64,000 nucleotides of DNA from a phage. The notes under the pieces are model-generated. The model was not told where the DNA came from. It did not search any database and saw only the letters and a program-made list of their open reading frames with translations. The position numbers and the translations under genes are program-made. Positions 32,805 through 64,000 of this stretch are shown here, one piece after another; within the stretch, counting starts at the first letter, position 1, and every line of letters starts with the position of its first letter. The stretch lies in the NCBI GenBank assembly GCA_024875585.1, contig GCA_024875585.1_4107.1. One strand, given 5' to 3'.

Positions 32805-32805
32805 A

Positions 32806-50762: not shown

Positions 50763-50992
50763 TACTGACAGAACTAGAAATGTATCATAGATTTAATAAG
50801 TACTATCATTTACTTAAGCCTATACAGAGGATTAAATGTCCATTTGAAGAGAAACAGGTATTAATTTATGAGCATAAGTTATTTGTATCATTAGGTACGA
50901 ATGAACAAGAGTATTATTTGAAGTTGTACTTAATTACTTTAATTGAATTGATTAATCACAAAACACAGAAAGCTAAGAAATCTAAAAAATGA
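50756..50992 (+). CDS. family A small protein A26
   Basis: LGTNEQEYYL. Confidence 0.8.
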   Translation: MLVLTELEMYHRFNKYYHLLKPIQRIKCPFEEKQVLIYEHKLFVSLGTNEQEYYLKLYLITLIELINHKTQKAKKSKK

Positions 50993-51327
50993 AAACTAAT
51001 ATTCAACTCAAGGTATACATATCTTATGAATCTATATACATCAAATGCAGTCTATGTAAAGATGTAATGGATTATAAAGGTAAGCCATTCACAATTACTT
51101 ACAGTCTAACAGGAGGCTTTTATATATCTTTTGTTGATTACGAAAATAAAATATACAAGCACATTGATATTAAAGATTTAAGTACCTTGTCAGATGAGGA
51201 ATACTTTCAAGAATCATTAGTATGGGATTTAGAGTTTCCTATGACATTAGTACACAAAATGATAGTACTAATGAAAGAAACTAAACCTGAGCCGAGTGGT
51301 TATGAAGAATTCATTATTGAGTATTAA
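50989..51327 (+). CDS. family B protein B1 (short form, core domain only)
   Basis: ATGA overlap; LSDEEYFQESLVWDLEF. Confidence 0.8.
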   Translation: MKTNIQLKVYISYESIYIKCSLCKDVMDYKGKPFTITYSLTGGFYISFVDYENKIYKHIDIKDLSTLSDEEYFQESLVWDLEFPMTLVHKMIVLMKETKPEPSGYEEFIIEY

Positions 51328-51339
51328 GAGTACTGATAT

Positions 51340-51555
51340 ATGAAAAGATTATCATACAAAGATTACAGTAAACTTATCAGTACTTTACAACCAGAAATTA
51401 GAAGAATTAATTATCTTCCTATACCCAACGAAGAACGTGTAGTACTGAAAAATGAGTTAATATTAAAACGCACAGTAGGTACTAACTATCAAGATAATAG
51501 TGTTTGCGATTTAATTAGAGGGTTAATGATCACAATAAAGGCCAAGTGCTATTGA
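51340..51555 (+). CDS. family A small protein A27
   Basis: VGTNYQDNSV. Confidence 0.85.
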   Translation: MKRLSYKDYSKLISTLQPEIRRINYLPIPNEERVVLKNELILKRTVGTNYQDNSVCDLIRGLMITIKAKCY

Positions 51556-51561
51556 CAGTAC

Positions 51562-51591
51562 TTGACGGAGCTTTTCATTACTGATATAGTA
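51562..51591 (+). promoter_or_regulatory. possible sigma70-type promoter
   Basis: TTGACG(51562-67)-18nt-TATAGT(51586-91). Confidence 0.4.
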
Positions 51592-51619
51592 CACTAACGT
51601 TAATCATAGGGTAGAAATT

Positions 51620-51865
51620 ATGTTAAAATTTTTAAATTTCCTTATCGTCTTGTGTATTGTTCTTGGGATTGCACCGTTTGTACTGGTGTATATGGATTCA
51701 GATGAAATGCAAAAGATGAATTGCACAAAGACGGGACAGAGTAGAGAAGAGACGATTCTTATGCCTGTTACTGTTATTGTTAATAATATGCCCATTACAA
51801 ACATGGTCCCTACCCTAACGACAACGTACCAGTACTCTTGTACAGACGGGGAGAGGTGGAGATGA
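51620..51865 (+). CDS. small membrane/secreted protein (81 aa)
   Basis: N-terminal hydrophobic MLKFLNFLIVLCIVLGIAPFVLV. Confidence 0.65.
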   Translation: MLKFLNFLIVLCIVLGIAPFVLVYMDSDEMQKMNCTKTGQSREETILMPVTVIVNNMPITNMVPTLTTTYQYSCTDGERWR

Positions 51866-52182
51866 AATTTAATATAGCAAAAACATCGAATGTATGTATA
51901 TTTGGTTATGCAGAAGAGTTAGGTGATATTGACATTCTTTTGTACAAAAAGGATGGTGTTATGCATTTCAAGTACCAGGATGAAGAGGCAGACAATTATC
52001 TTTTGCCTAATTTAGTACAAATGCAGGAAGAGGAATTATTCCAGTACAGCTTAGTATATGACATTGATATTTGCACGATGCCAGTACTAATTAATATTCA
52101 AAAAGTGATGCTCGATGTGTTTGATAGGCTAATACAAGGCACACAAGGAAGAACCATATATGTCAATGTACAAGACAATTAA
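51862..52182 (+). CDS. family B protein B2 (short form)
   Basis: ATG 51862 after ggtggag; MQEEELFQYSLVYDIDI. Confidence 0.8.
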   Translation: MKFNIAKTSNVCIFGYAEELGDIDILLYKKDGVMHFKYQDEEADNYLLPNLVQMQEEELFQYSLVYDIDICTMPVLINIQKVMLDVFDRLIQGTQGRTIYVNVQDN

Positions 52183-52375
52183 TCAAGAATGGAAGAATCA
52201 AAAGTACAGAGAATTCAATAGGAATTTTACAAAAGACGAATTGAATATAAAAACAACAGAATTTGATATGTTTATTTTTCTCGGAACACGTTCTCAGGAG
52301 CAATTTGTTCATTATTATATAAATTCGTTGCGAGCGGAGATAGTATGCAAAACAAAGGGTATTATAAAAAGGTAA
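52160..52375 (+). CDS. family A small protein A28 (diverged)
   Basis: LGTRSQEQFVHYYINSL. Confidence 0.75.
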   Translation: MSMYKTINQEWKNQKYREFNRNFTKDELNIKTTEFDMFIFLGTRSQEQFVHYYINSLRAEIVCKTKGIIKR

Positions 52376-52611
52376 ACCAACATTTGTACGCTACAAAGTA
52401 CAGGGATTTTTGTTTAAAGGGTGGTGATGAAGATTTTTCTTTGCGATTATCAGAATTTAATCTGTTATTTTATCTTGGTACATCGGAACAAGAAGAAATG
52501 GCACAGAAATTTCTCAATCACCTTGTACAAAAAATTAATATGCAAATTTTGATGCTTAAGTTACAGGATGAGATAAATGAATATGAACCCAACAATAGTA
52601 CAGGATCTTAA
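52345..52611 (+). CDS. family A small protein A29 (diverged)
   Basis: LGTSEQEEMAQKFLNHL. Confidence 0.75.
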   Translation: MQNKGYYKKVNQHLYATKYRDFCLKGGDEDFSLRLSEFNLLFYLGTSEQEEMAQKFLNHLVQKINMQILMLKLQDEINEYEPNNSTGS

Positions 52612-52972
52612 ACAAGTAATATTCCTTTTGAATACAAGAAGTGAATTGTATACAGAGTTTAAAGAGATTAATGCATTTTATCAGAATTTTGTAATTCAAG
52701 AGTTCAGTGATTTAATTACAGATGCATTATTTGAATTATCGGAAAAATACAAAGGAACAGAGTTCAGTGTTAAAAATGTATTACGTTCTTTATCAACGCG
52801 TATAATAAAATTAGATCATTTCAAATTTGAAAATAAAGATTTATTCAGTCACAATCCAAGTACAGCTTTATATTTTATTCCTGATTCAGACAAAAATCAT
52901 CCTATTCATTACGGATGGATTTTGTCGTACATAGTACAAGGAAAGGAGTATCCTATTAAATGGAACGATTAG
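52577..52972 (+). CDS. hypothetical protein (131 aa)
   Basis: SD cagga; in-train ORF. Confidence 0.7.
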   Translation: MNMNPTIVQDLKQVIFLLNTRSELYTEFKEINAFYQNFVIQEFSDLITDALFELSEKYKGTEFSVKNVLRSLSTRIIKLDHFKFENKDLFSHNPSTALYFIPDSDKNHPIHYGWILSYIVQGKEYPIKWND

Positions 52973-53121
52973 GGCGATTAGATTATTACACAATTAATAC
53001 AAATTATTTGTTGCGTAATATAAAATCCGATTACAAAATATGGATAAAGAACAGAGATAGCATGTGTTATGAATTTTATTTAGATTATGCTATCAAACGA
53101 TTTTTAAGAGAAGAACATTAG
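52960..53121 (+). CDS. hypothetical small protein (53 aa; below cutoff)
   Basis: MERLGRLDYYTINTNYLLRN...; bridges the gap between neighbours with short overlaps. Confidence 0.45.
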   Translation: MERLGRLDYYTINTNYLLRNIKSDYKIWIKNRDSMCYEFYLDYAIKRFLREEH

Positions 53122-53324
53122 TGCAAAATAGTAATACGATAACATTAAATGCATTACAGGATTCATTATTAGATAGTATTAAGATGTATTACAATATACA
53201 TTTGAGGGGTGGCATTGATGATTATAATTATTATTTGAGTTTAATTGTAATTGAGCACCTTTCAGTACAGGACAGGATTTTACATCCTACAAATCCTAGG
53301 TATCCATCGATAGGTAAATTATGA
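53121..53324 (+). CDS. hypothetical small protein (67 aa)
   Basis: GTG start overlapping the previous stop (taGTG). Confidence 0.55.
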   Translation: MQNSNTITLNALQDSLLDSIKMYYNIHLRGGIDDYNYYLSLIVIEHLSVQDRILHPTNPRYPSIGKL

Positions 53325-53878
53325 ATGAGATAGAGTTATTAGCACACAAGATAAGTACAATAATGCTTATCCTCAATAACAACCATCCTATATCGCAGAT
53401 AGATGGAATCCTGAGTCAGAGGACAGGTGGTAGTTTATATTTGTCCCTAAACGCAAATATCGCAAGGAAATACATTGACATTGGTGATGTTGATGCTGAA
53501 ATCGAATGTGATACAACTGGAATTGTTGATGTAGGTGCATTAATCAGTTCAAATCCTGTATCAGTATCCCCGTTGACCAAAGGTGTTAGTACAGGATTCG
53601 AAGGATATTTGTGGTATAATGCTAATGATAATTATTTTATATATCAGCATTCTAATACAAATTATGATGAAGATAAATTTGAGTTCATTGACCCTTATGA
53701 TGAAGCTGGAGTATTTCAACAATCATTAATCACAAAACCACATCAAATGATGTATCTAATGTTATTCAGTACAATGAATTTGAATCCATTAATTAATGGT
53801 TTAAAGTTTTATATTCAATTGAATTTGGTTCATGTAGTTTATGATTTATTAATGCAAGGATATAGTTATGAAGTATAA
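53321..53878 (+). CDS. family B protein B3
   Basis: ATGA overlap; YDEAGVFQQSLITKP. Confidence 0.8.
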   Translation: MNEIELLAHKISTIMLILNNNHPISQIDGILSQRTGGSLYLSLNANIARKYIDIGDVDAEIECDTTGIVDVGALISSNPVSVSPLTKGVSTGFEGYLWYNANDNYFIYQHSNTNYDEDKFEFIDPYDEAGVFQQSLITKPHQMMYLMLFSTMNLNPLINGLKFYIQLNLVHVVYDLLMQGYSYEV

Positions 53879-54170
53879 AATGATGTATACTCCAGATATG
53901 ATTTATGTTGAATTAGAAGACGATGACGACGGCTGGAATTTGATTTATTCAATTAGTTCAGGTTGGTACATGGCACATTTAAATGATAACAAAGTTACAG
54001 ATTATTTTGTAGATTTCAACACCTTATCCGATGAAGAATTGTTTCAACAACAATTAGTGATTGATACAGGTGGTTATGATGTGTTATTATTAAAAAAGAT
54101 ACAGAAAGCTGTTATTGATTTTAAGCCCAATATGTTGCAAAGGAAATATTATGACATCGAAGTACAATAA
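53868..54170 (+). CDS. family B protein B4 (short form)
   Basis: SD caagga; LSDEELFQQQLVIDTG. Confidence 0.8.
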   Translation: MKYKMMYTPDMIYVELEDDDDGWNLIYSISSGWYMAHLNDNKVTDYFVDFNTLSDEELFQQQLVIDTGGYDVLLLKKIQKAVIDFKPNMLQRKYYDIEVQ

Positions 54171-54504
54171 TGTATTTGATATTAAGAAATTAAAAGAATG
54201 GGTTTATAGTATTGAAATTGAAGCAATTCCTTATCATAGATACAAACAATATGATTTATGTAATATAGATATTCGTGAGTTGTACGCATATTATCAGAGT
54301 GCATTAGAGATGCATAAGATATTTTTGAGTTCAAATTACATGACACGTTGTAATGATGCTTTTAAAGAATTTAATAATTATAATTTAGTACAAAAATATG
54401 TCGTATCAAAGTACATGTACAATCAAGGAATTAAAGGTTGTATTGAATTCAATTCGGTCTTTGCTTTAGTTGAGATAATTTTATGCAGTACATGTCTGAT
54501 TTAG
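54151..54504 (+). CDS. hypothetical protein (117 aa)
   Basis: ATG 54151 after aaagga. Confidence 0.7.
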   Translation: MTSKYNNVFDIKKLKEWVYSIEIEAIPYHRYKQYDLCNIDIRELYAYYQSALEMHKIFLSSNYMTRCNDAFKEFNNYNLVQKYVVSKYMYNQGIKGCIEFNSVFALVEIILCSTCLI

Positions 54505-54980
54505 AGTTTAGTTTAGATGCTGCTTTTAAATTTGTACACAAGATAGAAACAATATATCGTACATTATGTGCAATACGATTAGTAACATCTGAACTTGATG
54601 TTGGTAAAAGGTATCAGGTATGGAATAACACATTTCTAGACAAAGAGCGTTGTTCAACTGGGTTTAATATTTTATCATTTAATCCAAGTAATTGTTACCC
54701 AGAGAAGCATGAGCGTTATCCGAATGATGACATGTGGTTTGAGTACAAAGAAGATGGTGATATGTCGTTCATTGAAGTTCCTGATGATTTTAATGCACAA
54801 GATTTAACAGAAGAATGGTGGTTCCAGCAGAATTTAGTCCACGATGATATTGATTTATTTTTTTATGTAGTATTTAAAATGCTTTATCACAACAAGATAG
54901 TACAAGATAGTGTATTTTTTTCATGTCTATATATTGATGATTTGTACAATGAAATTCAAATCAACATGCCTGTATCGTAA
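54483..54980 (+). CDS. family B protein B5
   Basis: LTEEWWFQQNLVHDDID. Confidence 0.8.
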   Translation: MQYMSDLEFSLDAAFKFVHKIETIYRTLCAIRLVTSELDVGKRYQVWNNTFLDKERCSTGFNILSFNPSNCYPEKHERYPNDDMWFEYKEDGDMSFIEVPDDFNAQDLTEEWWFQQNLVHDDIDLFFYVVFKMLYHNKIVQDSVFFSCLYIDDLYNEIQINMPVS

Positions 54981-55005
54981 GATATGGGCTTTTTTTGTTT
55001 TGGTA

Positions 55006-55034
55006 TTGACATAGAAGTACAAAACTGTTATCAT
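55006..55034 (+). promoter_or_regulatory. sigma70-type promoter
   Basis: TTGACA(55006-11)-17nt-TATCAT(55029-34); preceded by a T-run. Confidence 0.5.
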
Positions 55035-55060
55035 GGGTAATCATTTTAAAGGAGGAATTT

Positions 55061-55594
55061 ATGGCGAGTTTTATGGTTCCAAGTACATACGAAGATGCAT
55101 CAAGTGCAGTGCATAAGGTTCATCATATTTTTAATTTAATTATTAATGCATCAAAAAATAAAATGTATGCACCTCTAGTGAAATTTAATAAAAATGAGGA
55201 AATTTTTGTTAGTACAGAACAAACGATTTTTCCATATTTCAATAAAGATAGATTATGGTTCATGCATTCAGTTGCATTACAAAGATATAATATAACAAGA
55301 TCCAACGAAAATCATAATCCAGGATATTTGCATATATCGTTATACCATCCCGATATTGGAGAGGATGTATATTTTCAGTACAGCACAGTACACTGCCATG
55401 AAGATATCTTTGCTGCTATGCTTATTGCTAAACTGAACACCGTTGATTTGGAGTACCACAAATACAATAATAAATCATTTAAGATCATAATCCCTGCATT
55501 CATAGCTCTTTATGATTATGTGGTGCATAACAAAAAAGATGATACATATGCTTTCAATGAAGAGTATTTGGATTTTTTTAAGGAGAACATATGA
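55061..55594 (+). CDS. family B protein B6
   Basis: SD aaaggagg; GEDVYFQYSTVHCHED. Confidence 0.85.
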   Translation: MASFMVPSTYEDASSAVHKVHHIFNLIINASKNKMYAPLVKFNKNEEIFVSTEQTIFPYFNKDRLWFMHSVALQRYNITRSNENHNPGYLHISLYHPDIGEDVYFQYSTVHCHEDIFAAMLIAKLNTVDLEYHKYNNKSFKIIIPAFIALYDYVVHNKKDDTYAFNEEYLDFFKENI

Positions 55595-56136
55595 GCAGTA
55601 CAACAGTACAGAAAGCAATGACATTCAATGAAATTGGTGCATTTAAAGATAAGATTATTGATAGTATTGAATATTTGATTTGTTGTAACATCAATAAGAT
55701 AGATGTATATAACAAGGTAAATGGTTCATATCACACAATGTACATGACAAACAACAATGGAACTATTCCATTTATTTCGGATAGTACAATATGGTACGCA
55801 TGTGATACAACAAAATACACAGCAGGTTCGTATGTGTTAGGGACACATAAGGAATTAATTATTCCTGAGCATTGTATACAAGAAGAAGAATATTTTCAAA
55901 TGCAGTTAGTACACGCACCATTAGAGATGGTTGCTTTATATATGATACCTTATATCTCTAAATGTGTTCATGAGAATAAAGCTCCATGGAATCATGAATT
56001 TGGTTCGTTGAAGTTATTGTATAATGTTTTAGCACAATATTATGATTACAGACACGAGGGTACAATCAGCGATGTATGGGATTTTGAATCACTAAGGGTG
56101 AAAACATACACAGGTGAATTATATGTCCAGAATTAA
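55591..56136 (+). CDS. family B protein B7
   Basis: ATGA overlap; IQEEEYFQMQLVHAP. Confidence 0.85.
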   Translation: MSSTTVQKAMTFNEIGAFKDKIIDSIEYLICCNINKIDVYNKVNGSYHTMYMTNNNGTIPFISDSTIWYACDTTKYTAGSYVLGTHKELIIPEHCIQEEEYFQMQLVHAPLEMVALYMIPYISKCVHENKAPWNHEFGSLKLLYNVLAQYYDYRHEGTISDVWDFESLRVKTYTGELYVQN

Positions 56137-56737
56137 AATGTGTGATTTGATGCAGTACAGTAAAATTGCAATTCCAGTACTTAATAAAGTTCTTGATGCA
56201 TTCATTGCAAAATACCCTGAGAATTCAGAATTACGTATTCCGTTTCGTGTACCAGACATAGATGATACATTCTATGTAAATGTCAGTACACGTGGTATTA
56301 CATTGCAGCAGAAATACAGGGATACAGAATACTATGGAATAAAGTTGGATTCGGGGCAGGGTTCTAAATCATCCTATGATTTTTTTGTTCCTAATAATAT
56401 AGAGTCATGGGAAACAAACATTTCAAAGAAAGATGAAAATGATGTTCCTATTAGTGGTGAATTAAGCAATAAAGTTTTTTATTATTACGAAACTGATAAA
56501 TTCCCTGAAGAGTTATATTACAATTCAGAAATGAGTGAAGATGTAGATGCATTCATGTTTCAATTATCTTTAGTACAGGATATAATTAATGTTCAAGAGT
56601 TAAGAGCAGAAATCAATTTAGCTAAAGAGTTGTCGGACATGTTGCCACCGTTTAGTATGATTTTTTGTGAAGGAGGTTATTTTACAAAAGAAGTGTTTGA
56701 ACATTTCGTAGATGTTGTAAAAGGGTTGGATATATAG
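56123..56737 (+). CDS. family B protein B8
   Basis: ATG 56123 after aggtg; DVDAFMFQLSLVQDI. Confidence 0.8.
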   Translation: MSRIKMCDLMQYSKIAIPVLNKVLDAFIAKYPENSELRIPFRVPDIDDTFYVNVSTRGITLQQKYRDTEYYGIKLDSGQGSKSSYDFFVPNNIESWETNISKKDENDVPISGELSNKVFYYYETDKFPEELYYNSEMSEDVDAFMFQLSLVQDIINVQELRAEINLAKELSDMLPPFSMIFCEGGYFTKEVFEHFVDVVKGLDI

Positions 56738-56738
56738 T

Positions 56739-56969
56739 ATGCTTACTGATGATATTAAACAAAAATACCGTAAGTTTGATTGGTTCACCGACAGTTTCCA
56801 GCTTGAATTACTGTATTTGAATATAAGTGAGACATTATGTGCAGAAACACAAGATGAATTTGATGACAGAGTTCTTAACATAGTAATGCTTTCTTGCTTT
56901 AAACACTTTGGTTATTTTTCGAACAGGATTAAGGTACAAAATGCATCAACACAAGCATCATTCATATGA
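56739..56969 (+). CDS. hypothetical small protein (76 aa)
   Basis: in-train ORF. Confidence 0.6.
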   Translation: MLTDDIKQKYRKFDWFTDSFQLELLYLNISETLCAETQDEFDDRVLNIVMLSCFKHFGYFSNRIKVQNASTQASFI

Positions 56970-57456
56970 TTTTGCAATTAACATTATGAAGTTCATTCGA
57001 GCGTTGGAGGATGGGAAGCTTAGTCATAAGTACAGGAAAGAGGGTAACAATTGGTTCAGAAATGATTCCGAGTTCAGGAGTCATAACATCGTGTATAGCA
57101 ATCAGTACAGTGCTAATTACCTACAAGATGTAGTGATGTGTTTTGAATATGTATTGCAGTTCAGGGGTACAATCCAGAATGAATTAATGGATCACATGTA
57201 CATCCGATACCTTCCAATGCATAAAGATGAAAATGCATTATTAGGTTCAATATACCAACGAGTAAGGGAAATTGAGTGCAGGGATATATTAGATACAGAA
57301 GAATCGTATTTCCAGCAATCTCTTATTACTGCACCTGATTCATTACAGGCACATAATTTGTTTAATACATTACGTCAGAACATCAGTACAGACATATTTT
57401 TGTCATTATTGGATTATGATACATTTGTCAAAGATTTAGAGGAAATAGGTTTATGA
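56941..57456 (+). CDS. family B protein B9
   Basis: ATG 56941 after aagg; DTEESYFQQSLITAP. Confidence 0.8.
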   Translation: MHQHKHHSYDFAINIMKFIRALEDGKLSHKYRKEGNNWFRNDSEFRSHNIVYSNQYSANYLQDVVMCFEYVLQFRGTIQNELMDHMYIRYLPMHKDENALLGSIYQRVREIECRDILDTEESYFQQSLITAPDSLQAHNLFNTLRQNISTDIFLSLLDYDTFVKDLEEIGL

Positions 57457-57809
57457 GTATATTTTCGGTTTATATAGTAAACGTCCACAACGATGGTAGT
57501 TTAATTGAATTTGATCTAGTTGATAACGATGATAATGCATATGGTATTAAAGTGCAGGGAGATGAAGTGCAGTTCACTACAAGAACAAATTTTGAAAATC
57601 CAGTCCAAGTTCCTAATTTCATAGAAGATGAAGCTGCACGATTCCAATACGAAACGATATACGAGAATGTACATATGCATACTGTTATGCAACAAAGTTT
57701 AGTTCAATTAGTTCCTTTGTTTAAACAAAATATATATGTACATGAATTGTCGATTAATGACGTTCGCAGTTCCGTTTTGTTCGGTTCCAGGGATACCGAT
57801 GATATGTAA
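57453..57809 (+). CDS. family B protein B10 (short form)
   Basis: ATGA overlap; EDEAARFQYETIYEN. Confidence 0.75.
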   Translation: MSIFSVYIVNVHNDGSLIEFDLVDNDDNAYGIKVQGDEVQFTTRTNFENPVQVPNFIEDEAARFQYETIYENVHMHTVMQQSLVQLVPLFKQNIYVHELSINDVRSSVLFGSRDTDDM

Positions 57810-57818: not shown

Positions 57819-58367
57819 ATGAGTTTATTAGATACATTAGAAAAAGACCGAAGTGCAATTAAACGATTAAAAAAGCAAATTCAAAAGATTGTATACAACG
57901 TTGATAAGTTTGAGGTTCCTGGGAGAGTAGGTGATATTTCCCATACTGAGATCAAATCCCTTAAGTCAGATTTGTTGGTTAAAAATAAAAATGAGTTGAT
58001 TTTAGTTTTGAGTTCAGATATGATGGGGGTAAGATATGGTTTTAATTCAGTATCAGTGCATCCTAAGAGTGAAGGGATATATCTATCACAGGGTTTCAAT
58101 AGCAACGAGCAGAAGTGTTTTTACGATGCTGTACATGAACCTTTGAAGTTTACGAGAAGTGAAGCTCAAGCGTTATTAGAGCTATCAGACGAGAGTTTGT
58201 TTCAGTACAGTACAATGTACGACAATGACAAGCTTCGTTGTATGTACGCAGTGAAGCATTATGCACATGAGTTCTCTGGATTTGAATACCTTTTAGTTAG
58301 AACCAATACAATGTATCTTGATATGTTAGAAGAATACATCGATAAAGTTGTTAATGAGTATCACTAA
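57819..58367 (+). CDS. family B protein B11
   Basis: SD aagga; LSDESLFQYSTMYDND. Confidence 0.85.
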   Translation: MSLLDTLEKDRSAIKRLKKQIQKIVYNVDKFEVPGRVGDISHTEIKSLKSDLLVKNKNELILVLSSDMMGVRYGFNSVSVHPKSEGIYLSQGFNSNEQKCFYDAVHEPLKFTRSEAQALLELSDESLFQYSTMYDNDKLRCMYAVKHYAHEFSGFEYLLVRTNTMYLDMLEEYIDKVVNEYH

Positions 58368-58528
58368 TGAAAGAGTTATTTGAAGATCAGTTCAATACCT
58401 ATGTGGATAATATTCTTTATTCCAATCGTGCCAGTCAACGAGGAAATCGTGCTTACAATATTGATTACCTATTAGTGGTACTGAGTTCACAGTACACACA
58501 CGCTGTACAGAGGATGTATTATGAATAG
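58367..58528 (+). CDS. hypothetical small protein (53 aa; below cutoff)
   Basis: TAATG junction; MKELFEDQFNTYVDNILYSN... Confidence 0.45.
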   Translation: MKELFEDQFNTYVDNILYSNRASQRGNRAYNIDYLLVVLSSQYTHAVQRMYYE

Positions 58529-58724
58529 TTATCACGATATTGCAAAGGAGAAGTTGGAGTGTAGTTTAGATTACGGTTTAAATAATTTTCTTACATGCAC
58601 AATGTACAGGGATGAAGATTATGAACAATCCGTAATTTCGTTGCATAGATATTTCGAAATAATTTACGCAAGATATCTTAGAAGGTTAAACGGGATAGGG
58701 GATTGGAATTATGATTACGTTTGA
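58521..58724 (+). CDS. hypothetical small protein (67 aa)
   Basis: SD gagga. Confidence 0.6.
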   Translation: MNSYHDIAKEKLECSLDYGLNNFLTCTMYRDEDYEQSVISLHRYFEIIYARYLRRLNGIGDWNYDYV

Positions 58725-58965
58725 AGAACCAGAAACAATGAGTCCATATACGATGAAAGGTTTTGAATTCATGATGGATTCGATTTTGAAGAATTCGTGT
58801 TTAGTACACAATCCTGGATGTGCTACAGTGAGGGAATATCAGGACAATGCATTGCATCGTGTAATGAATATGTACAGGAATACGAGCCGTAAGCTTTGTG
58901 CGATTAAAAGGATTAAAGAAATCAAGGCTTCTAAGATGAATAAAATCAATCCGTGTGATTTTTGA
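58711..58965 (+). CDS. hypothetical small protein (84 aa)
   Basis: in-train ORF. Confidence 0.6.
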   Translation: MITFEEPETMSPYTMKGFEFMMDSILKNSCLVHNPGCATVREYQDNALHRVMNMYRNTSRKLCAIKRIKEIKASKMNKINPCDF

Positions 58966-59001
58966 AATCTTCGTATTCATATATCATAAGGTTTAATAAA
59001 A

Positions 59002-59730
59002 ATGAAATATAAAGAATTTTGTATAAAAACATGGATGTACACTGGTGAATTGCTTACGTGCTGTAATTTGTACAAGCGTGATGTAAACTTCACAAAGGAC
59101 AAAGTTATCAAGTATGAAAATTCTCAATTTTATTTGATGGATTTTAGTACTGGGTTTCATGGTAAATCAACCGAGATGCTGGATTATACATTAATGGATG
59201 AGGCGGCACTATTTCAAGAATCATTAGTATTTGATAAGAAGTACATCTGTACATTAGAAGAGATGATTGAAATTCAGAATAAAATTAAATGTGTTCACAG
59301 GGAATGTATTGATAAATGGTGTAAAACGGGTGAAACTGATTTTAGTAATCATTTTAATCTAGGAGAAAGAGTGATGGAATTTGATTTTTTAATATCAGTG
59401 CATACATTCAAGAATACACATCAGTACTTTTGTAATTTAAACAAAGGTGATTTAATGCACAGTGCGAATGAGTATATTCATTTTATGGATGGTAAATTCA
59501 CATTCATTGATTACAGTTCATTACAATATCCACATCAAGATATGCCGGACTATACAATAATGAATGAGGCTGAACTATTTCAAGCTTCATTAGTATTTGA
59601 CAAGAAGTACATCTGTACATTTGAAGAAGTAATTACTATACAAAATGAAATGAAGGAGTATGCATCTTTGAATAAACCCAATGAAGGTATTAATCAAGAA
59701 TACAAATTCAATATAGAGATTCCAAAATGA
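59002..59730 (+). CDS. family B protein B12 (two fused core domains)
   Basis: MDEAALFQESLVFDKKYICTLEEM and MNEAELFQASLVFDKKYICTFEEV in one ORF; second unit begins near MEFDF (about 59375). Confidence 0.85.
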   Translation: MKYKEFCIKTWMYTGELLTCCNLYKRDVNFTKDKVIKYENSQFYLMDFSTGFHGKSTEMLDYTLMDEAALFQESLVFDKKYICTLEEMIEIQNKIKCVHRECIDKWCKTGETDFSNHFNLGERVMEFDFLISVHTFKNTHQYFCNLNKGDLMHSANEYIHFMDGKFTFIDYSSLQYPHQDMPDYTIMNEAELFQASLVFDKKYICTFEEVITIQNEMKEYASLNKPNEGINQEYKFNIEIPK

Positions 59731-60086
59731 CATATGATTACTCTATGTACTATTATAAGTTACCTAAAGGATGGGACTTGTGCTGTAATCTTATTAAGGG
59801 AGACTCGGAACATGAGTTGAATTTATATATGCACTACAAAGATTCTTGTTTTAAATTTATTCATGTATCACATGATGACTATGACTATGAATCTGAGAGT
59901 CTTATAGATTATACAGTACTGGACGATGGCGAACTATTTCAGGAAGCATTAGTGTTTGATAAGAATAAGTACTCCTGTACATTTGAAGAAATGGTTTCTT
60001 TGCAAACTGAAATGAAGAGATTTGAAAAAGAAAACGTATTTAATCCATCCCCATCAAGAACGAATAATTATTATTTCAATATATGA
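59727..60086 (+). CDS. family B protein B13 (short form)
   Basis: ATGA overlap; LDDGELFQEALVFDKNKYSCTFEEM. Confidence 0.85.
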   Translation: MTYDYSMYYYKLPKGWDLCCNLIKGDSEHELNLYMHYKDSCFKFIHVSHDDYDYESESLIDYTVLDDGELFQEALVFDKNKYSCTFEEMVSLQTEMKRFEKENVFNPSPSRTNNYYFNI

Positions 60087-60095
60087 GATTATAAA

Positions 60096-60578
60096 ATGAC
60101 ATTACAGAGTTCATTGGAAAAAGCAAAGAAGATCCATGAGTACATGAATATGGCAAAAGAAGGTTCAGTTTACGGTGTTTTCAAAGACACAAGTACTCAA
60201 TATTTTGTGCCGGATAACCTCCTTTATAATGACTACTCAGATACAGAAACGTGCGTACTGGATACCGACCCTAAAGATTATGAATGTTTCATTGATATGC
60301 ATTATGAGTACATGGTCTATATTAATGATGCAGATATTACCATCTACAGTACTGACTGCAATTCCGATGATATTATAATTCCTAGTGAAGTTCTGAATGG
60401 CCCGTGGGATAGTGAAGAGTATTACTTCCAACAAAGTACTGTATACAATGAAGAAGTACTTGATGTTATTATAATTATGTGGTACTTTAAAAATATTGGT
60501 TCTGATAACTTCTATTTCGATTACAGATACGTAAAGAAAGCTATAGATAACGATATTAATAAACCACACGGGGGTTGA
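60096..60578 (+). CDS. family B protein B14 (MSLQSALEKAKKIH subfamily)
   Basis: WDSEEYYFQQSTVYNEEVLDVIIIMWYFKN. Confidence 0.85.
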   Translation: MTLQSSLEKAKKIHEYMNMAKEGSVYGVFKDTSTQYFVPDNLLYNDYSDTETCVLDTDPKDYECFIDMHYEYMVYINDADITIYSTDCNSDDIIIPSEVLNGPWDSEEYYFQQSTVYNEEVLDVIIIMWYFKNIGSDNFYFDYRYVKKAIDNDINKPHGG

Positions 60579-60579
60579 A

Positions 60580-61050
60580 ATGAGTTTAGAAAGAGCATTA
60601 GAGATTGCGAAGTTAATTGATTTATGCAGCAAAGAAATTGTATCAAATTGTCTCAATGGATATCTATTCAAGGAAGGTAAATCATATTGTCGAATGAGAT
60701 ACGATGACAGTAGTGAGTATATTCACATGTATGAAGAAGACCTTGATGATTCCGAAATAACACTGAATGGGTGTGATGTTAATCTGGAAGATAATTACAT
60801 TTACTTCAGTCGTGGTGCTGATATTTTAATACAAGAAACATCAATTCAACATGTGAATCCAGATGTATATCTTCCATATTCAGTACTGGATAATGACTGG
60901 GGAAGTGAAGAGGTTTACTTTCAGCATAATACTATCTACGATGAAGATGTGCTTGACAAGCTTGTCATTCTGTGGTACTTTAAGAACACTGATACTCCCA
61001 ACTTCTATATGGATTTGGATCTACTACGAGTTATAAAAGAGGATATATGA
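60580..61050 (+). CDS. family B protein B15 (same subfamily)
   Basis: MSLERALEIAKLI; WGSEEVYFQHNTIYDEDVLD. Confidence 0.85.
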   Translation: MSLERALEIAKLIDLCSKEIVSNCLNGYLFKEGKSYCRMRYDDSSEYIHMYEEDLDDSEITLNGCDVNLEDNYIYFSRGADILIQETSIQHVNPDVYLPYSVLDNDWGSEEVYFQHNTIYDEDVLDKLVILWYFKNTDTPNFYMDLDLLRVIKEDI

Positions 61051-61490
61051 GTTTAGCAAGTGCACTTAAACTGGCACACAAAATACATCACTTCCACGAT
61101 AACATAAAAAGTGGGTTCTATGGTGATAAAGTAAGTGCATTGGGTAATGAGTATTATCTATCAGGTATAAAGACATACTCTGATGATATTTTACTTATGG
61201 GACATGATAAAGACAATACTATACAGTACTCTTCATGTAGTCAATATACTAGTTTTATGGTATATATTCCAGGTACTAAGATTACGTTTGACACATCAAA
61301 TTCACCTGTTGACTTCGGGGTACTTGATGGCCCGTGGGGTACTGAAGAGTATTACTTCCAACAGAGTCTTATTTTCAACCAAGAAATTCTTGATTCCTTG
61401 GTTGTTTTGTGGTACTTTAAGGAATTGAATTTTGAACCATTCTTTCTTGACTGGGGAGCATGTGAGTATTTAAGTACAGGGGATTTGTAA
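61047..61490 (+). CDS. family B protein B16 (same subfamily)
   Basis: ATGA overlap; MSLASALKLAHKIH; WGTEEYYFQQSLIFNQEILD. Confidence 0.85.
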   Translation: MSLASALKLAHKIHHFHDNIKSGFYGDKVSALGNEYYLSGIKTYSDDILLMGHDKDNTIQYSSCSQYTSFMVYIPGTKITFDTSNSPVDFGVLDGPWGTEEYYFQQSLIFNQEILDSLVVLWYFKELNFEPFFLDWGACEYLSTGDL

Positions 61491-61978
61491 TGTCGTTACA
61501 AAGTGCATTAAAAGAAGCAAAGAAAATCCATGAGTACATGATTATGGTACAAGAAGGTTCAGTCCCAGGTGTGTATAAAACATCTGATACTGAATTTTTT
61601 GTAAAAGACCGTGACGATTATGATGAGTCAGAGATATGTGCAGAAACGTTAGTACTGCACACTGATACTGGTGATAGTGATAACTGTGAATATCATATGT
61701 ACAATCAGTACATTAGTTATTGCCGTAATGAAGATATTACCATCTACAACACAGATATTGATGCTGATGACACTATCATTCCGTATTCAGTACTGGAAGG
61801 TCCGTGGGATAGTGAAGGGTATTACTTTCAGAATAGTACTATCTACAATGAAGAAGAACTGGATGTTATTGTGATTATGTGGTACTTTAAAAGTATTGAC
61901 TCCAGTAGTTTCTATTTTGATTATGAATATGTAGAGAATACAGTAGGAGAAGGTAATGTCATTACAAAGTGCTCTTGA
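61490..61978 (+). CDS. family B protein B17 (same subfamily)
   Basis: TAATG junction; MSLQSALKEAKKIH; WDSEGYYFQNSTIYNEEELD. Confidence 0.85.
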   Translation: MSLQSALKEAKKIHEYMIMVQEGSVPGVYKTSDTEFFVKDRDDYDESEICAETLVLHTDTGDSDNCEYHMYNQYISYCRNEDITIYNTDIDADDTIIPYSVLEGPWDSEGYYFQNSTIYNEEELDVIVIMWYFKSIDSSSFYFDYEYVENTVGEGNVITKCS

Positions 61979-62402
61979 AAAAGCAAAAGAAATACATGGA
62001 TACTTTGAAGATATAAAGGCAGGAAAGTTCAAAGAAGTATACAAAGCCGAGAACGGTAACTACTACAAAGATGAAATATATAATAATTCCGTTGGTGTAA
62101 GGGTTATTCTTGAGTTGAATTCCAATAGTCCTGTGTCGTTTTCTGAATACAATAGAGATGCAGAATTCATTAGTTATGTTGAAAATGGTAGCATTCGTTT
62201 TATTAATAGACAAAAACCATTAATTTTGAATTATGAAGTTCTGGATGGTCAGTGGGATAATGAAGAGTATTACTTCCAAAACAGTACTGTATACGACGAT
62301 GAAGTACTTGAAGCATTAGTTATTATGTGGTACTTCAAGAGTATTAACTGTCCTCGATTTTATTTGGATTTCGAAGAACTTGGTAAAGATCCAGAGGTAT
62401 AG
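61956..62402 (+). CDS. family B protein B18 (same subfamily)
   Basis: MSLQSALEKAKEIH; WDNEEYYFQNSTVYDDEVLE. Confidence 0.85.
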   Translation: MSLQSALEKAKEIHGYFEDIKAGKFKEVYKAENGNYYKDEIYNNSVGVRVILELNSNSPVSFSEYNRDAEFISYVENGSIRFINRQKPLILNYEVLDGQWDNEEYYFQNSTVYDDEVLEALVIMWYFKSINCPRFYLDFEELGKDPEV

Positions 62403-62403
62403 A

Positions 62404-62718
62404 ATGAAAAACTTATTCAGTGTTCAGTACGTTCCAGGTGAAATTAGTTTATTGTATCTCTTTGACCATGATAATTCATTATTACTAGTAGTAAAGAAAT
62501 GTCAAGCTAGTTCGTTTGTTGAATACATTCACGATAATGAATATATACCTGATTTTTTAGAGTGCGATTATTACGATGATCATGAATCATTTATTTTTCA
62601 GGAATCGCTAGTATGGGACAAATCGATTAACTTCTTTACGTTAATTGAATTACAAAAGCAAGTGAAGTATCATTGGGATTATTTAATTACACAGGATTAC
62701 ATTGAGATAGAAATATAA
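62404..62718 (+). CDS. family B protein B19 (short form)
   Basis: ATG 62404 after agagg; DDHESFIFQESLVWDKS. Confidence 0.8.
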   Translation: MKNLFSVQYVPGEISLLYLFDHDNSLLLVVKKCQASSFVEYIHDNEYIPDFLECDYYDDHESFIFQESLVWDKSINFFTLIELQKQVKYHWDYLITQDYIEIEI

Positions 62719-62960
62719 TGACTAAAAATGAATTTGATTCACTTTGTACTGTTTATAATTCATTAACAGAAATACCTAACTTTATTAGTTATATTTCAGC
62801 TTTAAATCACATTATGCATAGTTTTGAACAATCGTTTGAAGAGAAATATGCTGGAAGAAAAGTTCTATGTCATATGCCAATGTACTTAGGAGATGGTGAG
62901 CCTTACACTACAAGTACTACATGTGAAATAAAAAATATAATATATTATTGGGTACTATAG
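62718..62960 (+). CDS. hypothetical small protein (80 aa)
   Basis: TAATG junction. Confidence 0.6.
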   Translation: MTKNEFDSLCTVYNSLTEIPNFISYISALNHIMHSFEQSFEEKYAGRKVLCHMPMYLGDGEPYTTSTTCEIKNIIYYWVL

Positions 62961-63021
62961 AATTCACAGTATCCAATGGCGGTAGTTATATGTACTTTAG
63001 AGATGGAGTGGTTGAATTATT

Positions 63022-63471
63022 ATGAGTTACGAAAGTGCAATCAAGAAAGCAAATGATATTCTACGCGTCGTTCAATTCTTCAAAGAAAATCCTGAATACG
63101 TAGATGATAAAAACCAAGAGCACGATGAGAGATTGAGACGAAAAATTATCTCTTTATTTGACACTAATAAAGATAATTGGAGTCTAATTGAGTTAGCATA
63201 CGATTATATTTCATTGAACCGAAATGATGATGTAGTTAAGATAGAAAGGCATGAGTCAGAAGAATCTTTTAGAATTTCAGATATTTTATCCCTGAGTACT
63301 GAAGAAGGGTACTTCCAGGGTAGCACTCTTTATAATGAAGAAACACTTGACAATCTATGCACATTCAGTGTAATATATCAGAAATCTGTACTAGATATAT
63401 TTTATCTTGACACTGCTGAACTGCATACCCTAACCAATTTTGTTACTACCGAAGAGGCTACATTCGAGTGA
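63022..63471 (+). CDS. family B protein B20
   Basis: MSYESAIKKANDIL; LSTEEGYFQGSTLYNEETLD. Confidence 0.85.
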   Translation: MSYESAIKKANDILRVVQFFKENPEYVDDKNQEHDERLRRKIISLFDTNKDNWSLIELAYDYISLNRNDDVVKIERHESEESFRISDILSLSTEEGYFQGSTLYNEETLDNLCTFSVIYQKSVLDIFYLDTAELHTLTNFVTTEEATFE

Positions 63472-64000
63472 TGAAAGTTAACATTAATGACTTTGATGCA
63501 TTACAAGATTTATCAAAAAAGATTCGCACCATCGTACCAGTACTTAAAAAATGCAGTACTGGTTTAATCGATCCTAGTTCTGTTGTCAATGAGAAGTACA
63601 ATTTTCATCGTGTATTACAGGGGACAGGTGCATTTCAGAAGTGTGAGGTACGTGAGAAACATGTAATTGATACATCGTTGTTTTCTATTGGTGCACCTGT
63701 GTCAAACAATACTATTTTCCTGGATGCCGCTGGAAATATTCAACAATTAACATTTAAGAAAAGGAAAAAGAATAATAACATTGGTGTGTACGAGATGAAG
63801 TGGGGACAGCCAGAGTTGATGCGTGACATTCACATTCCTAAGTACAATTTCAATGCATTTGAAGAACAGTGTTTTCAACTTTCTTGTACTGACCCTGACT
63901 ATGCTATCATTCAATTCTATATGGAATTGCAGATTGCATTTAATAGTAATTTGTATATTAACTTATTGGCAATGAACATAGATGAAGTATTCAAAAACAT
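63471..64000 (+). CDS. family B protein B21 (3'-partial, runs off window)
   Basis: ATGA-type overlap with B20; open to the window end; AFEEQCFQLSCTDPDY. Confidence 0.7.
   Translation, partial: MKVNINDFDALQDLSKKIRTIVPVLKKCSTGLIDPSSVVNEKYNFHRVLQGTGAFQKCEVREKHVIDTSLFSIGAPVSNNTIFLDAAGNIQQLTFKKRKKNNNIGVYEMKWGQPELMRDIHIPKYNFNAFEEQCFQLSCTDPDYAIIQFYMELQIAFNSNLYINLLAMNIDEVFKN

What the first reader, a model, noticed from the sequence alone, without database searches (positions are those of the whole stretch)
50989..64000. Family B: 21 tandem genes (22 domains) built around an invariant F-Q core, (D/E)-E-x-x-F-Q-x-S-L-V-x-D
Genes B1-B21 share a core of about 100 aa whose hallmark is an acidic run followed by F-Q.

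Examples: SDEEYFQESLVWD, QEEELFQYSLVYD, TEESYFQQSLITA, WDSEEYYFQQSTVYNEEVLD, STEEGYFQGSTLYNEETLD.

Variation within the family:
- Short forms (B1, B2, B4, B10, B13, B19) are the core alone.
- Long forms add an N-terminal helical extension. The subfamily B14-B18 and B20 starts MSLQSALEKAKKIH.
- B12 is a fusion of two cores.

Two distant members lie elsewhere in the window:
- 14248..14898 (SDLMFQYSLIHKD)
- 22530..23189 (EEEEFMYSTVIDN)

The first B genes are interleaved with the last family A genes (A26-B1-A27-membrane-B2-A28-A29). This hints that the two families work together.

One curiosity: the motif resembles the potyviral NIa (TEV) protease site E-x-x-Y-x-Q-(G/S). B20 reads EEGYFQG and B14 reads EEYYFQQ. 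A shared cleavage or recognition site after Q is conceivable. The motif may just as well be a buried structural strand.
Basis: partly seen in the sequence, partly recalled or inferred. Interest (0 to 1): 0.75.

Follow-up and report, generated by a model that had tools for sequence, protein, structure and literature searches.

The report
Jumbo-phage tandem array of FQ-domain proteins
The region is the first two-thirds of a roughly 33-gene tandem array of one uncharacterised family of small acidic proteins in a giant E. coli phage; its invariant Phe-Gln motif lies in a predicted helix inside the fold and is not a protease site.

Summary
All 21 genes (22 domains) in 50989-64000 carry an invariant F-Q in the same context. 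Twenty complete genes (21 domains) join one HMM family. The window comes from an Asteriusvirus (121Q/PBECO4/UE-S1-like jumbo coliphage). The array runs about 7 kb past the window end, giving about 33 members over about 20 kb in UE-S1.

Comparable arrays occur in Erwinia phage Hallingskeid and in a 249-kb metagenomic contig. Single structural relatives occur in Klebsiella RaK2 and Yersinia fHe-Yen9-04.

The proteins are acidic (pI 4.1-6.1), under purifying selection (dN/dS about 0.3) and absent from the published phAPEC6 virion proteome. They are encoded just inside the 21.5-kb left terminal repeat, which is dense with consensus sigma-70 promoters.

The TEV-site idea is not supported: the motif is helical and only 1 of 22 domains fits E-x-x-Y-x-Q-[G/S]. 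The two "distant members" share only the motif. An A-B partnership is not supported outside Asteriusvirus.

Best guess (inferred, about 0.4): an early-expressed, diversified set of host-takeover or counter-defence binding proteins.

The parts
50989..51327 (+). B1, short form, 112 aa, motif LSDEEYFQESLVWD
   Evidence: HMM E 4e-27; motif; 121Q ortholog 82% aa identity, dN/dS 0.24
51862..52182 (+). B2, short form, 106 aa from the ATG (the ORF opens at TTG 51838), motif QEEELFQYSLVYD
   Evidence: HMM E 7e-27
53321..53878 (+). B3, long form, 185 aa, motif DEAGVFQQSLITK
   Evidence: Weak with window-only HMM (E 0.003-0.03); joins in the wider iteration; phrog_19795
53868..54170 (+). B4, short form, 100 aa, motif SDEELFQQQLVID
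   Evidence: HMM E 3e-24; 121Q ortholog only 53% identical
54483..54980 (+). B5, long form, 165 aa, motif TEEWWFQQNLVHD
   Evidence: Joins; PHROG cross-hit to phrog_12674 at E 0.0055
54968..55034 (+). Terminator-like hairpin (54968-54989) followed by a sigma-70-like promoter TTGACA-17-TATCAT with TG (55006-55034), in one of only four intergenic gaps of the array
   Evidence: consensus match only
55061..55594 (+). B6, long form, 177 aa, motif GEDVYFQYSTVHC
   Evidence: Joins; phrog_12674 cross-hit at E 0.0072
55591..56136 (+). B7, long form, 181 aa, motif QEEEYFQMQLVHA
   Evidence: A3 HMM E 5e-4; joins
56123..56737 (+). B8, long form, 204 aa from the ATG (the ORF opens at GTG 56114), motif DAFMFQLSLVQD
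   Evidence: HMM E 3e-15; phrog_31297
56941..57456 (+). B9, long form, 171 aa from the ATG (the ORF opens at TTG 56908), motif TEESYFQQSLITA
   Evidence: Joins; cross-hits to phrog_9317 and phrog_12674 at E 3e-4 and 5e-4
57453..57809 (+). B10, short form, 118 aa, motif DEAARFQYETIYE (most divergent member)
   Evidence: E 0.015-0.07 with window-only HMMs; joins
57819..58367 (+). B11, long form, 182 aa, motif SDESLFQYSTMYD
   Evidence: HMM E 1e-20
59002..59730 (+). B12, two FQ domains in one 242-aa protein. The same stretch is two separate genes in 121Q (genes 367 and 368); phAPEC6 also has separate single-domain genes there.
   Evidence: Two HMM domains, E 3e-29 and 1e-30
59727..60086 (+). B13, short form, 119 aa, motif DDGELFQEALVFD; the modelled protein
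   Evidence: AF2 pLDDT 86.6, pTM 0.83; strands at 5-59, helix 67-76 carrying F71-Q72, helices 79-82 and 86-102, strand 113-117
60096..60578 (+). B14, long form with N-terminal helix (MTLQSSLEKAKKIH), 160 aa, motif SEEYYFQQSTVYN
   Evidence: HMM E 8e-29; phrog_9317
60580..61050 (+). B15, long form, 156 aa, motif SEEVYFQHNTIYD
   Evidence: HMM E 2e-24
61047..61490 (+). B16, long form, 147 aa, motif TEEYYFQQSLIFN
   Evidence: HMM E 2e-25
61490..61978 (+). B17, long form, 162 aa, motif SEGYYFQNSTIYN
   Evidence: HMM E 3e-29; dN/dS 0.04 against 121Q
61956..62402 (+). B18, long form, 148 aa, motif NEEYYFQNSTVYD; the second modelled protein
   Evidence: AF2 pLDDT 91.5, pTM 0.87; helix 3-21, seven strands at 28-91, helix 103-109 (EEYYFQN), helix 115-129, strand 135-138
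62404..62718 (+). B19, short form, 104 aa from the ATG (the ORF opens at TTG 62380), motif HESFIFQESLVWD
   Evidence: HMM E 3e-24
63022..63471 (+). B20, long form, 149 aa, motif TEEGYFQGSTLYN. This is the only domain that fits E-x-x-Y-x-Q-[G/S].
   Evidence: HMM E 7e-19
63471..64000 (+). B21, cut by the window end (177 aa in UE-S1), motif FEEQCFQLSCTD; candidate member
   Evidence: Motif present; HMM E only 0.17; own phrog_18780
45121..52611 (+). Family A array: 28 genes of about 70 aa with an LGTNYQE motif. The last four interleave with B1 and B2. Context, not part of family B.
   Evidence: BLAST cluster of 28; HMM
24988..45000 (+). Region equivalent to the 21.5-kb direct terminal repeat of related records. 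It is dense with consensus sigma-70 promoters and lies immediately upstream of the A and B arrays.

Best explanation
What it is. The region holds the first 21 genes (22 domains) of a roughly 33-gene, 20-kb tandem array. It encodes one very divergent protein family, called here the FQ domain, found in RaK2-like jumbo phages of Enterobacterales.

Predicted structure. Each domain is an alpha/beta unit of about 100 aa:
- a sequence-variable antiparallel beta-sheet;
- a short acidic helix that carries the invariant Phe-Gln;
- a second, long helix;
- a closing beta-strand.
Long forms add an N-terminal helix and extra strands. The F-Q motif is a fold-defining element of the conserved C-terminal half. 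The Phe anchors the helix on the sheet, and the Gln is flanked by hydrophobic positions. It is not a cleavage site.

Properties. The proteins are cytoplasmic, acidic and non-virion. Each paralogue is old and kept under purifying selection, while copy number differs between close strains.

Expression (inferred). The genes lie just inside the left terminal repeat and read inward. They follow a bank of consensus sigma-70 promoters and are almost without intergenic gaps. They are therefore most likely made early, by host RNA polymerase, as long polycistronic transcripts.

Function (inferred). The most likely function is a diversified set of stoichiometric binding or inhibitor proteins for host takeover or counter-defence. 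The conserved helical half would be the scaffold. The variable sheet and N-terminal extensions would give each paralogue its own target.

Shown here: the family, the motif, the array extent, the predicted fold, the acidity, the selection, the position relative to the terminal repeat, the absence from the virion proteome, and the lack of any known relative. Inferred: early timing, burial of F and Q, binder function, and a counter-defence role.
For: Family and motif.

Array extent. The array continues to about L001 27947 in UE-S1, with about 12 more members.

Other phages. In Erwinia phage Hallingskeid, about 33 of 40 consecutive genes carry the motif. A 249-kb ENA contig has about 16 members. 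BFVD structural hits come from RaK2 and Yersinia fHe-Yen9-04.

Fold. AF2 gives pLDDT 86.6 and 91.5, with F-Q in helices 67-76 and 103-109.

Acidity. pI is 4.05-6.09 and net charge is -4 to -25, against a window median pI of 6.4.

Real, maintained genes. All 20 have intact 121Q orthologues, with pooled dN/dS 0.30.

Dynamic content. phAPEC6 has three extra members and carries the B12 region as separate single-domain genes. Only 11 of 36 related records cover at least 80% of the region.

Non-virion. None of gp436c-gp470c is among the 62 phAPEC6 virion proteins (PMC7247149 Table 1).

Position. In vB_Ec-M-J the DTR is 1-21525, family A starts at 21624 and B at 27350 (H12).

Promoters. The DTR-equivalent region has 104 sigma-70-like sites against 71.9 +/- 9.3 expected, eleven of them perfect 12/12 on the + strand. 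The array has no enrichment. Two of its four gaps carry extended -10 sigma-70-like promoters, and no T4-late-like or CBB-type motif is present.

Literature. The authors of the related phage CBB proposed that its promoter-rich region of short hypothetical genes is the early, host-takeover region (PMC5259590).
Against: There is no direct functional evidence of any kind.

- No expression data exist for this phage group, so early timing rests on promoter consensus matches and gene position.
- Which genome end enters the cell first is unknown.
- The UE-S1 paper reports an 8.3-kb DTR, and that record is numbered differently.
- Divergence between orthologues is nearly uniform along the protein: N-terminal part 14.1%, motif 10.4%, C-terminal part 11.4%. 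dN/dS is below 1 for every gene. So there is no signature of an arms race focused on the variable sheet.
- Acidity alone is weak evidence.
- The virion proteome lists only 62 proteins and could miss low-copy components.
Confidence: 0.4

Rival explanations
1. Cognate A-B modules. Each acidic B protein works with one small family A protein, many of which are basic, as a two-component unit such as an inhibitor with its regulator or a heterodimer.
For: The arrays are adjacent and interleaved at the junction. Two more A genes sit inside the B array downstream in UE-S1 (L001 20987-21374). Copy numbers are similar: about 30 A and about 33 B. About half of the A proteins have pI 9-10, whereas all B proteins are acidic.
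Against: The B arrays in Erwinia phage Hallingskeid (21 kb examined) and in the 249-kb contig (16 kb examined) have no family A member. The small genes upstream in that contig are unrelated to A. Apart from the junction, A and B are segregated into two blocks rather than paired. The other half of the A proteins are acidic or neutral.
Confidence: 0.12
2. Phage-internal role. The family serves phage development rather than host interaction. Examples would be assembly chaperones or adaptors for the many hair-like and tail fibres of these phages, or components of a replication or packaging structure.
For: The family is restricted to the RaK2-like clade, which shares unusual 'hairy' virions (PMC5259590; PMC7247149). 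Every paralogue is retained under purifying selection. Divergence is uniform along the protein.
Against: The genes are not located with structural genes. They sit in the promoter-rich terminal region of short accessory genes. None was detected in virions. Copy number varies between close strains. Thirty-plus chaperones would be unprecedented.
Confidence: 0.13
3. The F-Q motif is a shared proteolytic processing site, resembling potyviral NIa/TEV E-x-x-Y-x-Q-(G/S), cleaved after Q by a phage or host protease.
For: Nine of 22 domains read E-x-x-Y-x-Q, and B20 reads EEGYFQG.
Against: The motif is in a high-confidence alpha-helix inside the folded domain. Cleavage there would split the fold about 40-55 residues before the C-terminus in most members. 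P1' is G or S in only 1 of 22 domains, and Tyr at P3 is present in 10 of 22. What is invariant is F at P2, a position the E-x-x-Y-x-Q-(G/S) consensus leaves free. A TPR-like protein was picked up through the same motif in a helical repeat (P0078). The only protease in the phAPEC6 virion proteome is the prohead core scaffold and protease, gp227c.
Confidence: 0.02
4. The array is evolutionary debris: selfish or neutral tandem duplicates with no individual function.
For: All members are unannotated. Paralogues are very divergent, at 11-40% identity.
Against: All 20 ORFs are intact in 121Q, with dN/dS 0.30. F-Q is invariant across genera with varied codons. AF2 folds both forms confidently.
Confidence: 0.03

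Closest known systems
PHROG families phrog_15629, 13866, 9317, 12674, 31297, 30243, 33775, 19795, 34516, 30978, 28680, 33448, 18780
   Same: The window proteins are members, with E from 1e-46 to 1e-128 to their own PHROG and weak cross-hits between PHROGs.
   Different: All are labelled 'unknown function'. The family is split over at least 13 PHROGs. The shared FQ domain and the array organisation are not recorded there.
Terminal multigene families of large eukaryotic DNA viruses (ASFV MGF110/360/505; poxvirus terminal host-range families); from general knowledge
   Same: Tens of divergent paralogues sit in tandem next to the genome terminal repeat. Copy number varies between strains. The products are non-structural.
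   Different: There is no sequence or fold relationship. The host is a bacterium, and the function here is untested. This is an analogy of organisation only.
Lineage-specific expansion of a zinc ribbon (about 35 copies) in Bacillus jumbo phage G (PMC7824862)
   Same: A jumbo phage carries some 30 or more copies of one small domain.
   Different: It is an unrelated domain. That one is a recognisable nucleic-acid-binding fold, whereas the FQ domain has no recognisable relative.
Small acidic early anti-restriction / DNA-mimic proteins (T7 Ocr, ArdA, T4 Arn); from general knowledge
   Same: They are small, strongly acidic, non-virion and encoded near the leading end of the genome.
p32 / MAM33 / gC1qBP acidic fold
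Potyviral NIa (TEV) cleavage site E-x-x-Y-x-Q-(G/S)
   Same: There is a superficial string resemblance in the long-form subfamily.
   Different: The motif is helical and internal, P1' is not conserved, and no cognate protease is known.

Membership tests
FQ-domain family (this array) | Invariant F-Q in the context (D/E)(D/E)xxFQx(S)(L/T)(V/I), usually 40-55 (up to about 80) residues before the C-terminus | tested here: met
   22 of 22 domains. It is also invariant in all true hits of the exhaustive search.
FQ-domain family (this array) | Significant profile match over the roughly 100-aa domain | tested here: met
   20 complete genes (21 domains) at E<1e-3. B21 (truncated) reaches only E 0.17. 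ORFs 14248-14898 and 22500-23189 are not met.
NIa/TEV protease substrate site | Consensus E-x-x-Y-x-Q-(G/S) | tested here: not met
   1 of 22 domains fits. P1' reads EYQQQYMLQYYEAEQHQNNEGL across the 22 domains.
NIa/TEV protease substrate site | The site lies in an extended, accessible linker | tested here: not met
   Predicted alpha-helix 67-76 / 103-109 with pLDDT 95-98, inside the domain. This is model-based.
NIa/TEV protease substrate site | A cognate 3C/NIa-like chymotrypsin-fold cysteine protease is encoded by the genome | not tested
   Only the window and array flanks were examined, so the full genome was not scanned. Only a prohead protease appears in the phAPEC6 virion list.
Any Pfam-A family (including immunity-protein families such as SUKH/SMI1_KNR4 and Imm, and T4_MRH) | Score above the gathering threshold, or a consistent weak hit across members | tested here: not met
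   64 members were scanned. No family was hit by more than 2 members, and all hits were below cut-off. T4_MRH was hit by 1 member at E 0.024.
Virion structural proteins | Detected in the purified-virion proteome | tested here: not met
   phAPEC6 gp436c-gp470c are absent from Table 1 of PMC7247149. This is indirect, from a related phage.
Early (host RNA polymerase-transcribed) genes | Sigma-70 promoters upstream, and transcripts in the first minutes of infection | tested here: inconclusive
   Dense consensus promoters lie immediately upstream, in the DTR-equivalent region. Two promoter-like sites lie in array gaps. There is no enrichment inside the array, and no RNA data.
Anti-defence / host-takeover proteins | Binding to or inhibition of a host factor, or a host-range phenotype on deletion | not testable with these tools
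   Requires experiments.

The most novel reading that the evidence does not exclude
The FQ-domain array is a phage counterpart of the terminal multigene families of large eukaryotic DNA viruses. On this reading it is a repertoire of about 33 early proteins built on a previously unseen fold. Each would neutralise a different host defence effector or host factor, so that array content sets host range in RaK2-like jumbo phages.
Probability: 0.3. Interest if true: 0.8.

Novelty: new variant of a known kind. Interest (0 to 1): 0.55.

Why it matters
RaK2-like jumbo phages give about 6% of a 350-kb genome to this one family, yet no paper found here describes it and every member is annotated 'hypothetical'.

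Three results make the family experimentally tractable. More than 13 orphan PHROGs are unified into one domain. That domain has a confident predicted fold with no solved relative. Its position is now defined: just inside the terminal repeat, downstream of a bank of consensus host promoters.

If the members are target-specific inhibitors, the array would be a rich source of new anti-defence or host-takeover proteins. It could also be a determinant of host range in phages being developed for therapy against E. coli, Klebsiella and Erwinia.

If the function turns out to be developmental, the array is still an unusual case of massive paralogue retention in a phage.

Tried and rejected
- Pfam on 10 window proteins and on 64 family members: only scattered sub-threshold noise.
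- PDB sequence-profile search: 0 hits at E<=10.
- Foldseek against AFDB50: the library was unavailable.
- BFVD: only uncharacterised proteins of the same phage group.
- Exhaustive HMMER search of 1.84 billion representatives: 43 hits, all small proteins with the motif. One is a TPR-like false positive matched through the motif alone.
- IMG/VR scans with a back-translated motif and with a sub-family alignment: nothing confirmed. One alignment was too divergent for the tool, and one pattern was rejected.
- Distant members 14248-14898 and 22500-23189: HMM, hhalign and PHROG tests show motif-only similarity. Each motif match is individually unlikely by chance (P about 0.03 and 0.001, post hoc). 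Homology is therefore left open rather than refuted.
- Localised diversification: divergence between orthologues is uniform along the protein.
- Late or middle promoter motifs known from phage CBB and T4: none in the array.
- Literature on Asteriusvirus, RaK2, CBB, phAPEC6, UE-S1, Sharanji and JP4: there are only generic remarks that paralogues exist. One search was wasted on loose terms.

Full report
**Source and setting**

The region 50989-64000 is 96.4% identical to Escherichia phage UE-S1. It is 88-91% identical to 121Q, PBECO4, slurp01, phAPEC6 and other Asteriusvirus jumbo coliphages. Every gene under the match is annotated 'hypothetical protein'.

**Checking the observation**

There are 22 occurrences, because 59002-59730 has two.

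- The F usually lies 40-55 residues before the C-terminus; in B6 and B7 it is up to about 80.
- FQ.S[LT][IVM] occurs 14 times in the array ORFs. Composition-preserving shuffles predict 0.028 per 15,285 aa of ORFs outside the array.
- Both Phe codons, both Gln codons and both Ser codon families are used. Mean nucleotide identity across the motif is 53%. Selection is therefore on the protein, not on a DNA repeat.

*Homology.* BLAST alone gives two clusters, one of six long forms and one of five short forms.

- An HMM iterated on window ORFs unites 14 genes (15 domains). The other six B genes come next, as the best sub-threshold hits.
- When the iteration also sees the rest of the UE-S1 array and a second phage's array, all 20 complete genes (21 domains) join at E<1e-3.
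- PHROG cross-hits independently link B5, B6 and B9 to the long-form families.
- F and Q are the only invariant columns among the 15 window domains.
- B21 is cut by the window end. It has the motif but scores only E=0.17.

*The two 'distant members'.* Neither is established as a homologue.

| ORF | HMM E-value | hhalign | PHROG |
|---|---|---|---|
| 14248-14898 | 0.2-0.8 | 10 columns, probability 1% | own PHROG only |
| 22500-23189 | 0.004-0.04 | 22 columns, probability 6% | own PHROG only |

Their motif matches are individually unlikely by chance, so very distant membership stays possible.

**The array is larger than the window**

- In UE-S1 the family continues for another 7 kb or so, with 12 more members. 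That gives about 33 members over about 20 kb.
- phAPEC6 has three extra members in the homologous stretch. One of them, gp447c, is annotated 'amidohydrolase 3'.
- The two-domain B12 region holds separate single-domain genes in 121Q (genes 367 and 368) and in phAPEC6.
- Only 11 of 36 related records cover at least 80% of the region.

**Distribution**

An exhaustive HMMER search of 1.84 billion representative proteins finds only 43 hits. All are 65-241 aa. All carry F-Q except for one TPR-like false positive, which matched through the motif within its own helical repeats. Named hits are hypothetical proteins of coliphage genomes, some deposited as 'Escherichia coli' on contigs of about 350 kb.

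Outside Asteriusvirus:

- Erwinia phage Hallingskeid (366 kb) has about 33 motif-bearing genes among 40 consecutive genes at one end of its record.
- A 249-kb ENA contig has about 16 members, starting 4 kb from its end.
- Foldseek against BFVD recovers uncharacterised proteins of Klebsiella phage RaK2 and Yersinia phage fHe-Yen9-04.
- Two scans of IMG/VR confirmed nothing.

**Structure**

AlphaFold2 with family alignments gives confident models.

| Model | Quality | Elements in order |
|---|---|---|
| Short form B13 | pLDDT 86.6, pTM 0.83 | five strands (5-59); helix 67-76 (DGELFQEALV); helices 79-82 and 86-102; strand 113-117 |
| Long form B18 | pLDDT 91.5, pTM 0.87 | helix 3-21; seven strands (28-91); helix 103-109 (EEYYFQN); helix 115-129; strand 135-138 |

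The motif region has pLDDT 95-98.

No known relative was found.

- Pfam gives only scattered sub-threshold noise across 64 members.
- A profile search of all PDB sequences returns nothing at E<=10.
- The short form gave a weak run of p32/MAM33 hits. I took this as a lead and dropped it, because the long form does not reproduce it.

From helix geometry, Q at +1 lies between the conserved hydrophobic positions 0, +4 and +5. I therefore infer that Q is at least partly buried. This is inference, not a result.

**Properties of the proteins**

- All 20 are acidic: pI 4.05-6.09 and net charge -4 to -25, against a window median pI of 6.4.
- All have intact orthologues in 121Q, at 53-97% amino-acid identity. 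Pooled dN is 0.078, dS 0.263 and dN/dS 0.30, with a range of 0.04-0.93.
- Paralogues are far more divergent than orthologues (11-40% identity). The duplications therefore predate the Asteriusvirus radiation, and each copy has been kept.
- Divergence between orthologues is almost uniform along the protein, so there is no localised arms-race signal.
- None of the phAPEC6 homologues (gp436c-gp470c) is among the 62 virion proteins found by mass spectrometry (PMC7247149 Table 1).

**Genomic position and likely timing**

Window 25001 onward aligns from position 14 of six Asteriusvirus records. In vB_Ec-M-J the direct terminal repeat is annotated at 1-21525. Family A begins at 21624 and family B at 27350 (H12). 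Window position ~24,988 therefore corresponds to the left genome end of those records. This fits the GC-skew minimum at 24-26 kb. The A and B arrays follow the repeat directly and read inward.

| Region | Sigma-70-like sites found | Expected from shuffles | Perfect 12/12 sites |
|---|---|---|---|
| DTR-equivalent, 25-45 kb | 104 | 71.9 +/- 9.3 | eleven on the + strand, TTGACA-16/17-TATAAT |
| A/B arrays, 44.5-64 kb | 102 | 114.6 +/- 9.8 | none |

- The B array has only four gaps longer than 20 nt.
- Two of those gaps carry sigma-70-like promoters with an extended -10. One of them, at 55006-55034, follows the single + strand terminator-like hairpin at 54968-54989.
- No T4-late-like or CBB-type divergent promoter motif is present.
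- For the related phage CBB, the authors proposed that the RpoD-promoter-rich region of short hypothetical genes is the early host-takeover region (PMC5259590).

I infer early, host-polymerase-driven, largely polycistronic expression. This is not shown. The UE-S1 paper reports a shorter DTR of 8.3 kb and uses different numbering.

*TEV-like cleavage: not supported.*

- The motif is helical and internal.
- E-x-x-Y-x-Q occurs in 9 of 22 domains, and the full site with G or S at P1' in 1 of 22.
- The conserved Ser is at Q+2. The invariant residue besides Q is F at P2, which the viral consensus leaves free.
- A whole-genome scan for a 3C-like protease was not done.

*'Buried structural' reading: favoured.* The element is a helix, not a strand.

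*A-B cooperation.*

- In favour: adjacency; interleaving at the junction; two more A genes inside the downstream B array; similar copy numbers (about 30 and 33); and the basic character of about half the A proteins.
- Against: the B arrays of Hallingskeid and of the 249-kb contig have no A genes in the 16-21 kb examined.

**Most likely mechanism**

I commit, at about 0.4, to an early-expressed, diversified set of small acidic binding or inhibitor proteins for host takeover or counter-defence. The scaffold would be the conserved helix-helix-strand half, held together by the F-Q helix. The variable sheet and N-terminal extensions would supply target specificity.

The closest organisational analogy is the terminal multigene families of ASFV and poxviruses. 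That comparison comes from general knowledge, was not tested here, and implies no homology.

Rivals are:
- cognate A-B modules (0.12);
- a phage-internal developmental or assembly role (0.13);
- neutral duplicates (0.03);
- a cleavage site (0.02).

**Novelty**

The members are catalogued in at least 13 PHROGs, all labelled 'unknown function'. I found no paper describing the family. The RaK2 and CBB papers only remark that paralogues exist.

Lineage-specific expansions in jumbo phages are a known phenomenon; one example is the zinc ribbon of phage G (PMC7824862). I therefore rate this as a new variant of a known kind. It has an apparently new fold and an unknown function.

Noticed in passing
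window 24,988-45,000: This stretch corresponds to the 21.5-kb direct terminal repeat of related Asteriusvirus records; window ~24,988 equals their position 1. It is packed with sigma-70-like promoters: 104 against 71.9 +/- 9.3 expected, including eleven perfect TTGACA-16/17-TATAAT sites on the + strand. Terminator-like hairpins number 20 against 10.8 expected. It looks like an immediate-early region of short genes, each with its own promoter.
   Followed up: partly
window + strand 34863-34890, 38270-38299, 41279-41306, 43570-43597: A near-identical 28-30 nt hairpin, AAAGGGATTGACTCCGGTCAGTCCCTTT followed by GCTATTATAT, recurs four times. It contains a -35-like TTGACT and is followed by TG-TATTAT. 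The -35 box of a promoter-like site is embedded in a stem-loop, which suggests a repeated regulatory element.
   Followed up: no
window 45121-52611 (+): Family A: 28 tandem genes of about 70 aa with an LGTNYQE motif (phrog_4148, unknown function). Two more copies lie inside the B array downstream in UE-S1 (L001 20987-21374). pI is bimodal, at about 4.4-6 and about 9-10. The family is absent from the B arrays of Erwinia phage Hallingskeid and of the 249-kb contig.
   Followed up: partly
window 14940-21167 (-): Five paralogous genes of 374-449 aa on the minus strand. The first matches RCC1-like repeat domains in Pfam. Homologues are annotated 'DNA condensation protein' or 'regulator of chromosome condensation', and proteins with that annotation were detected in phAPEC6 virions.
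   Followed up: partly
window 6797-8149 (+): A 450-aa protein with a GmrSD_N (DUF262) restriction-endonuclease N-terminal domain (E 1.4e-17). This is a defence-type nuclease domain carried by the phage.
   Followed up: no
window 59002-59730; L006 18097-18821; L005 10357-11084: The two-domain gene B12 of this phage and UE-S1 corresponds to two adjacent single-domain genes in 121Q, and phAPEC6 also has separate single-domain genes there. This is a recent fusion or split within the array.
   Followed up: yes
L005 9714-10199 (phAPEC6 gp447c): This gene is annotated 'amidohydrolase 3' in GenBank, but it is an FQ-family member (HMM E 7e-12). The annotation is probably spurious. phAPEC6 also has two further members (gp465c, gp458c) with no counterpart in the window.
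   Followed up: partly
window 51620-51865 (+): An 81-aa ORF between A27 and B2 has a strongly hydrophobic N-terminal segment (MLKFLNFLIVLCIVLGIAPFVLVY). It is probably a small membrane protein, and it is preceded by a sigma-70-like promoter at 51562-51590.
   Followed up: no
window 21636-24725, 2392-3427, 11426-12105 (+): Several further small paralogue groups (2-3 members each, 60-120 aa) appear in the all-against-all BLAST. Tandem duplication of short genes is pervasive in this window.
   Followed up: no
window 52577-53324, 54151-54504, 56739-56969, 58367-58965, 62718-62960 (+): About nine short ORFs (53-131 aa) are interspersed in the B array. They lack the F-Q motif and do not match the family HMM. 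Their relation to the array is unknown.
   Followed up: no
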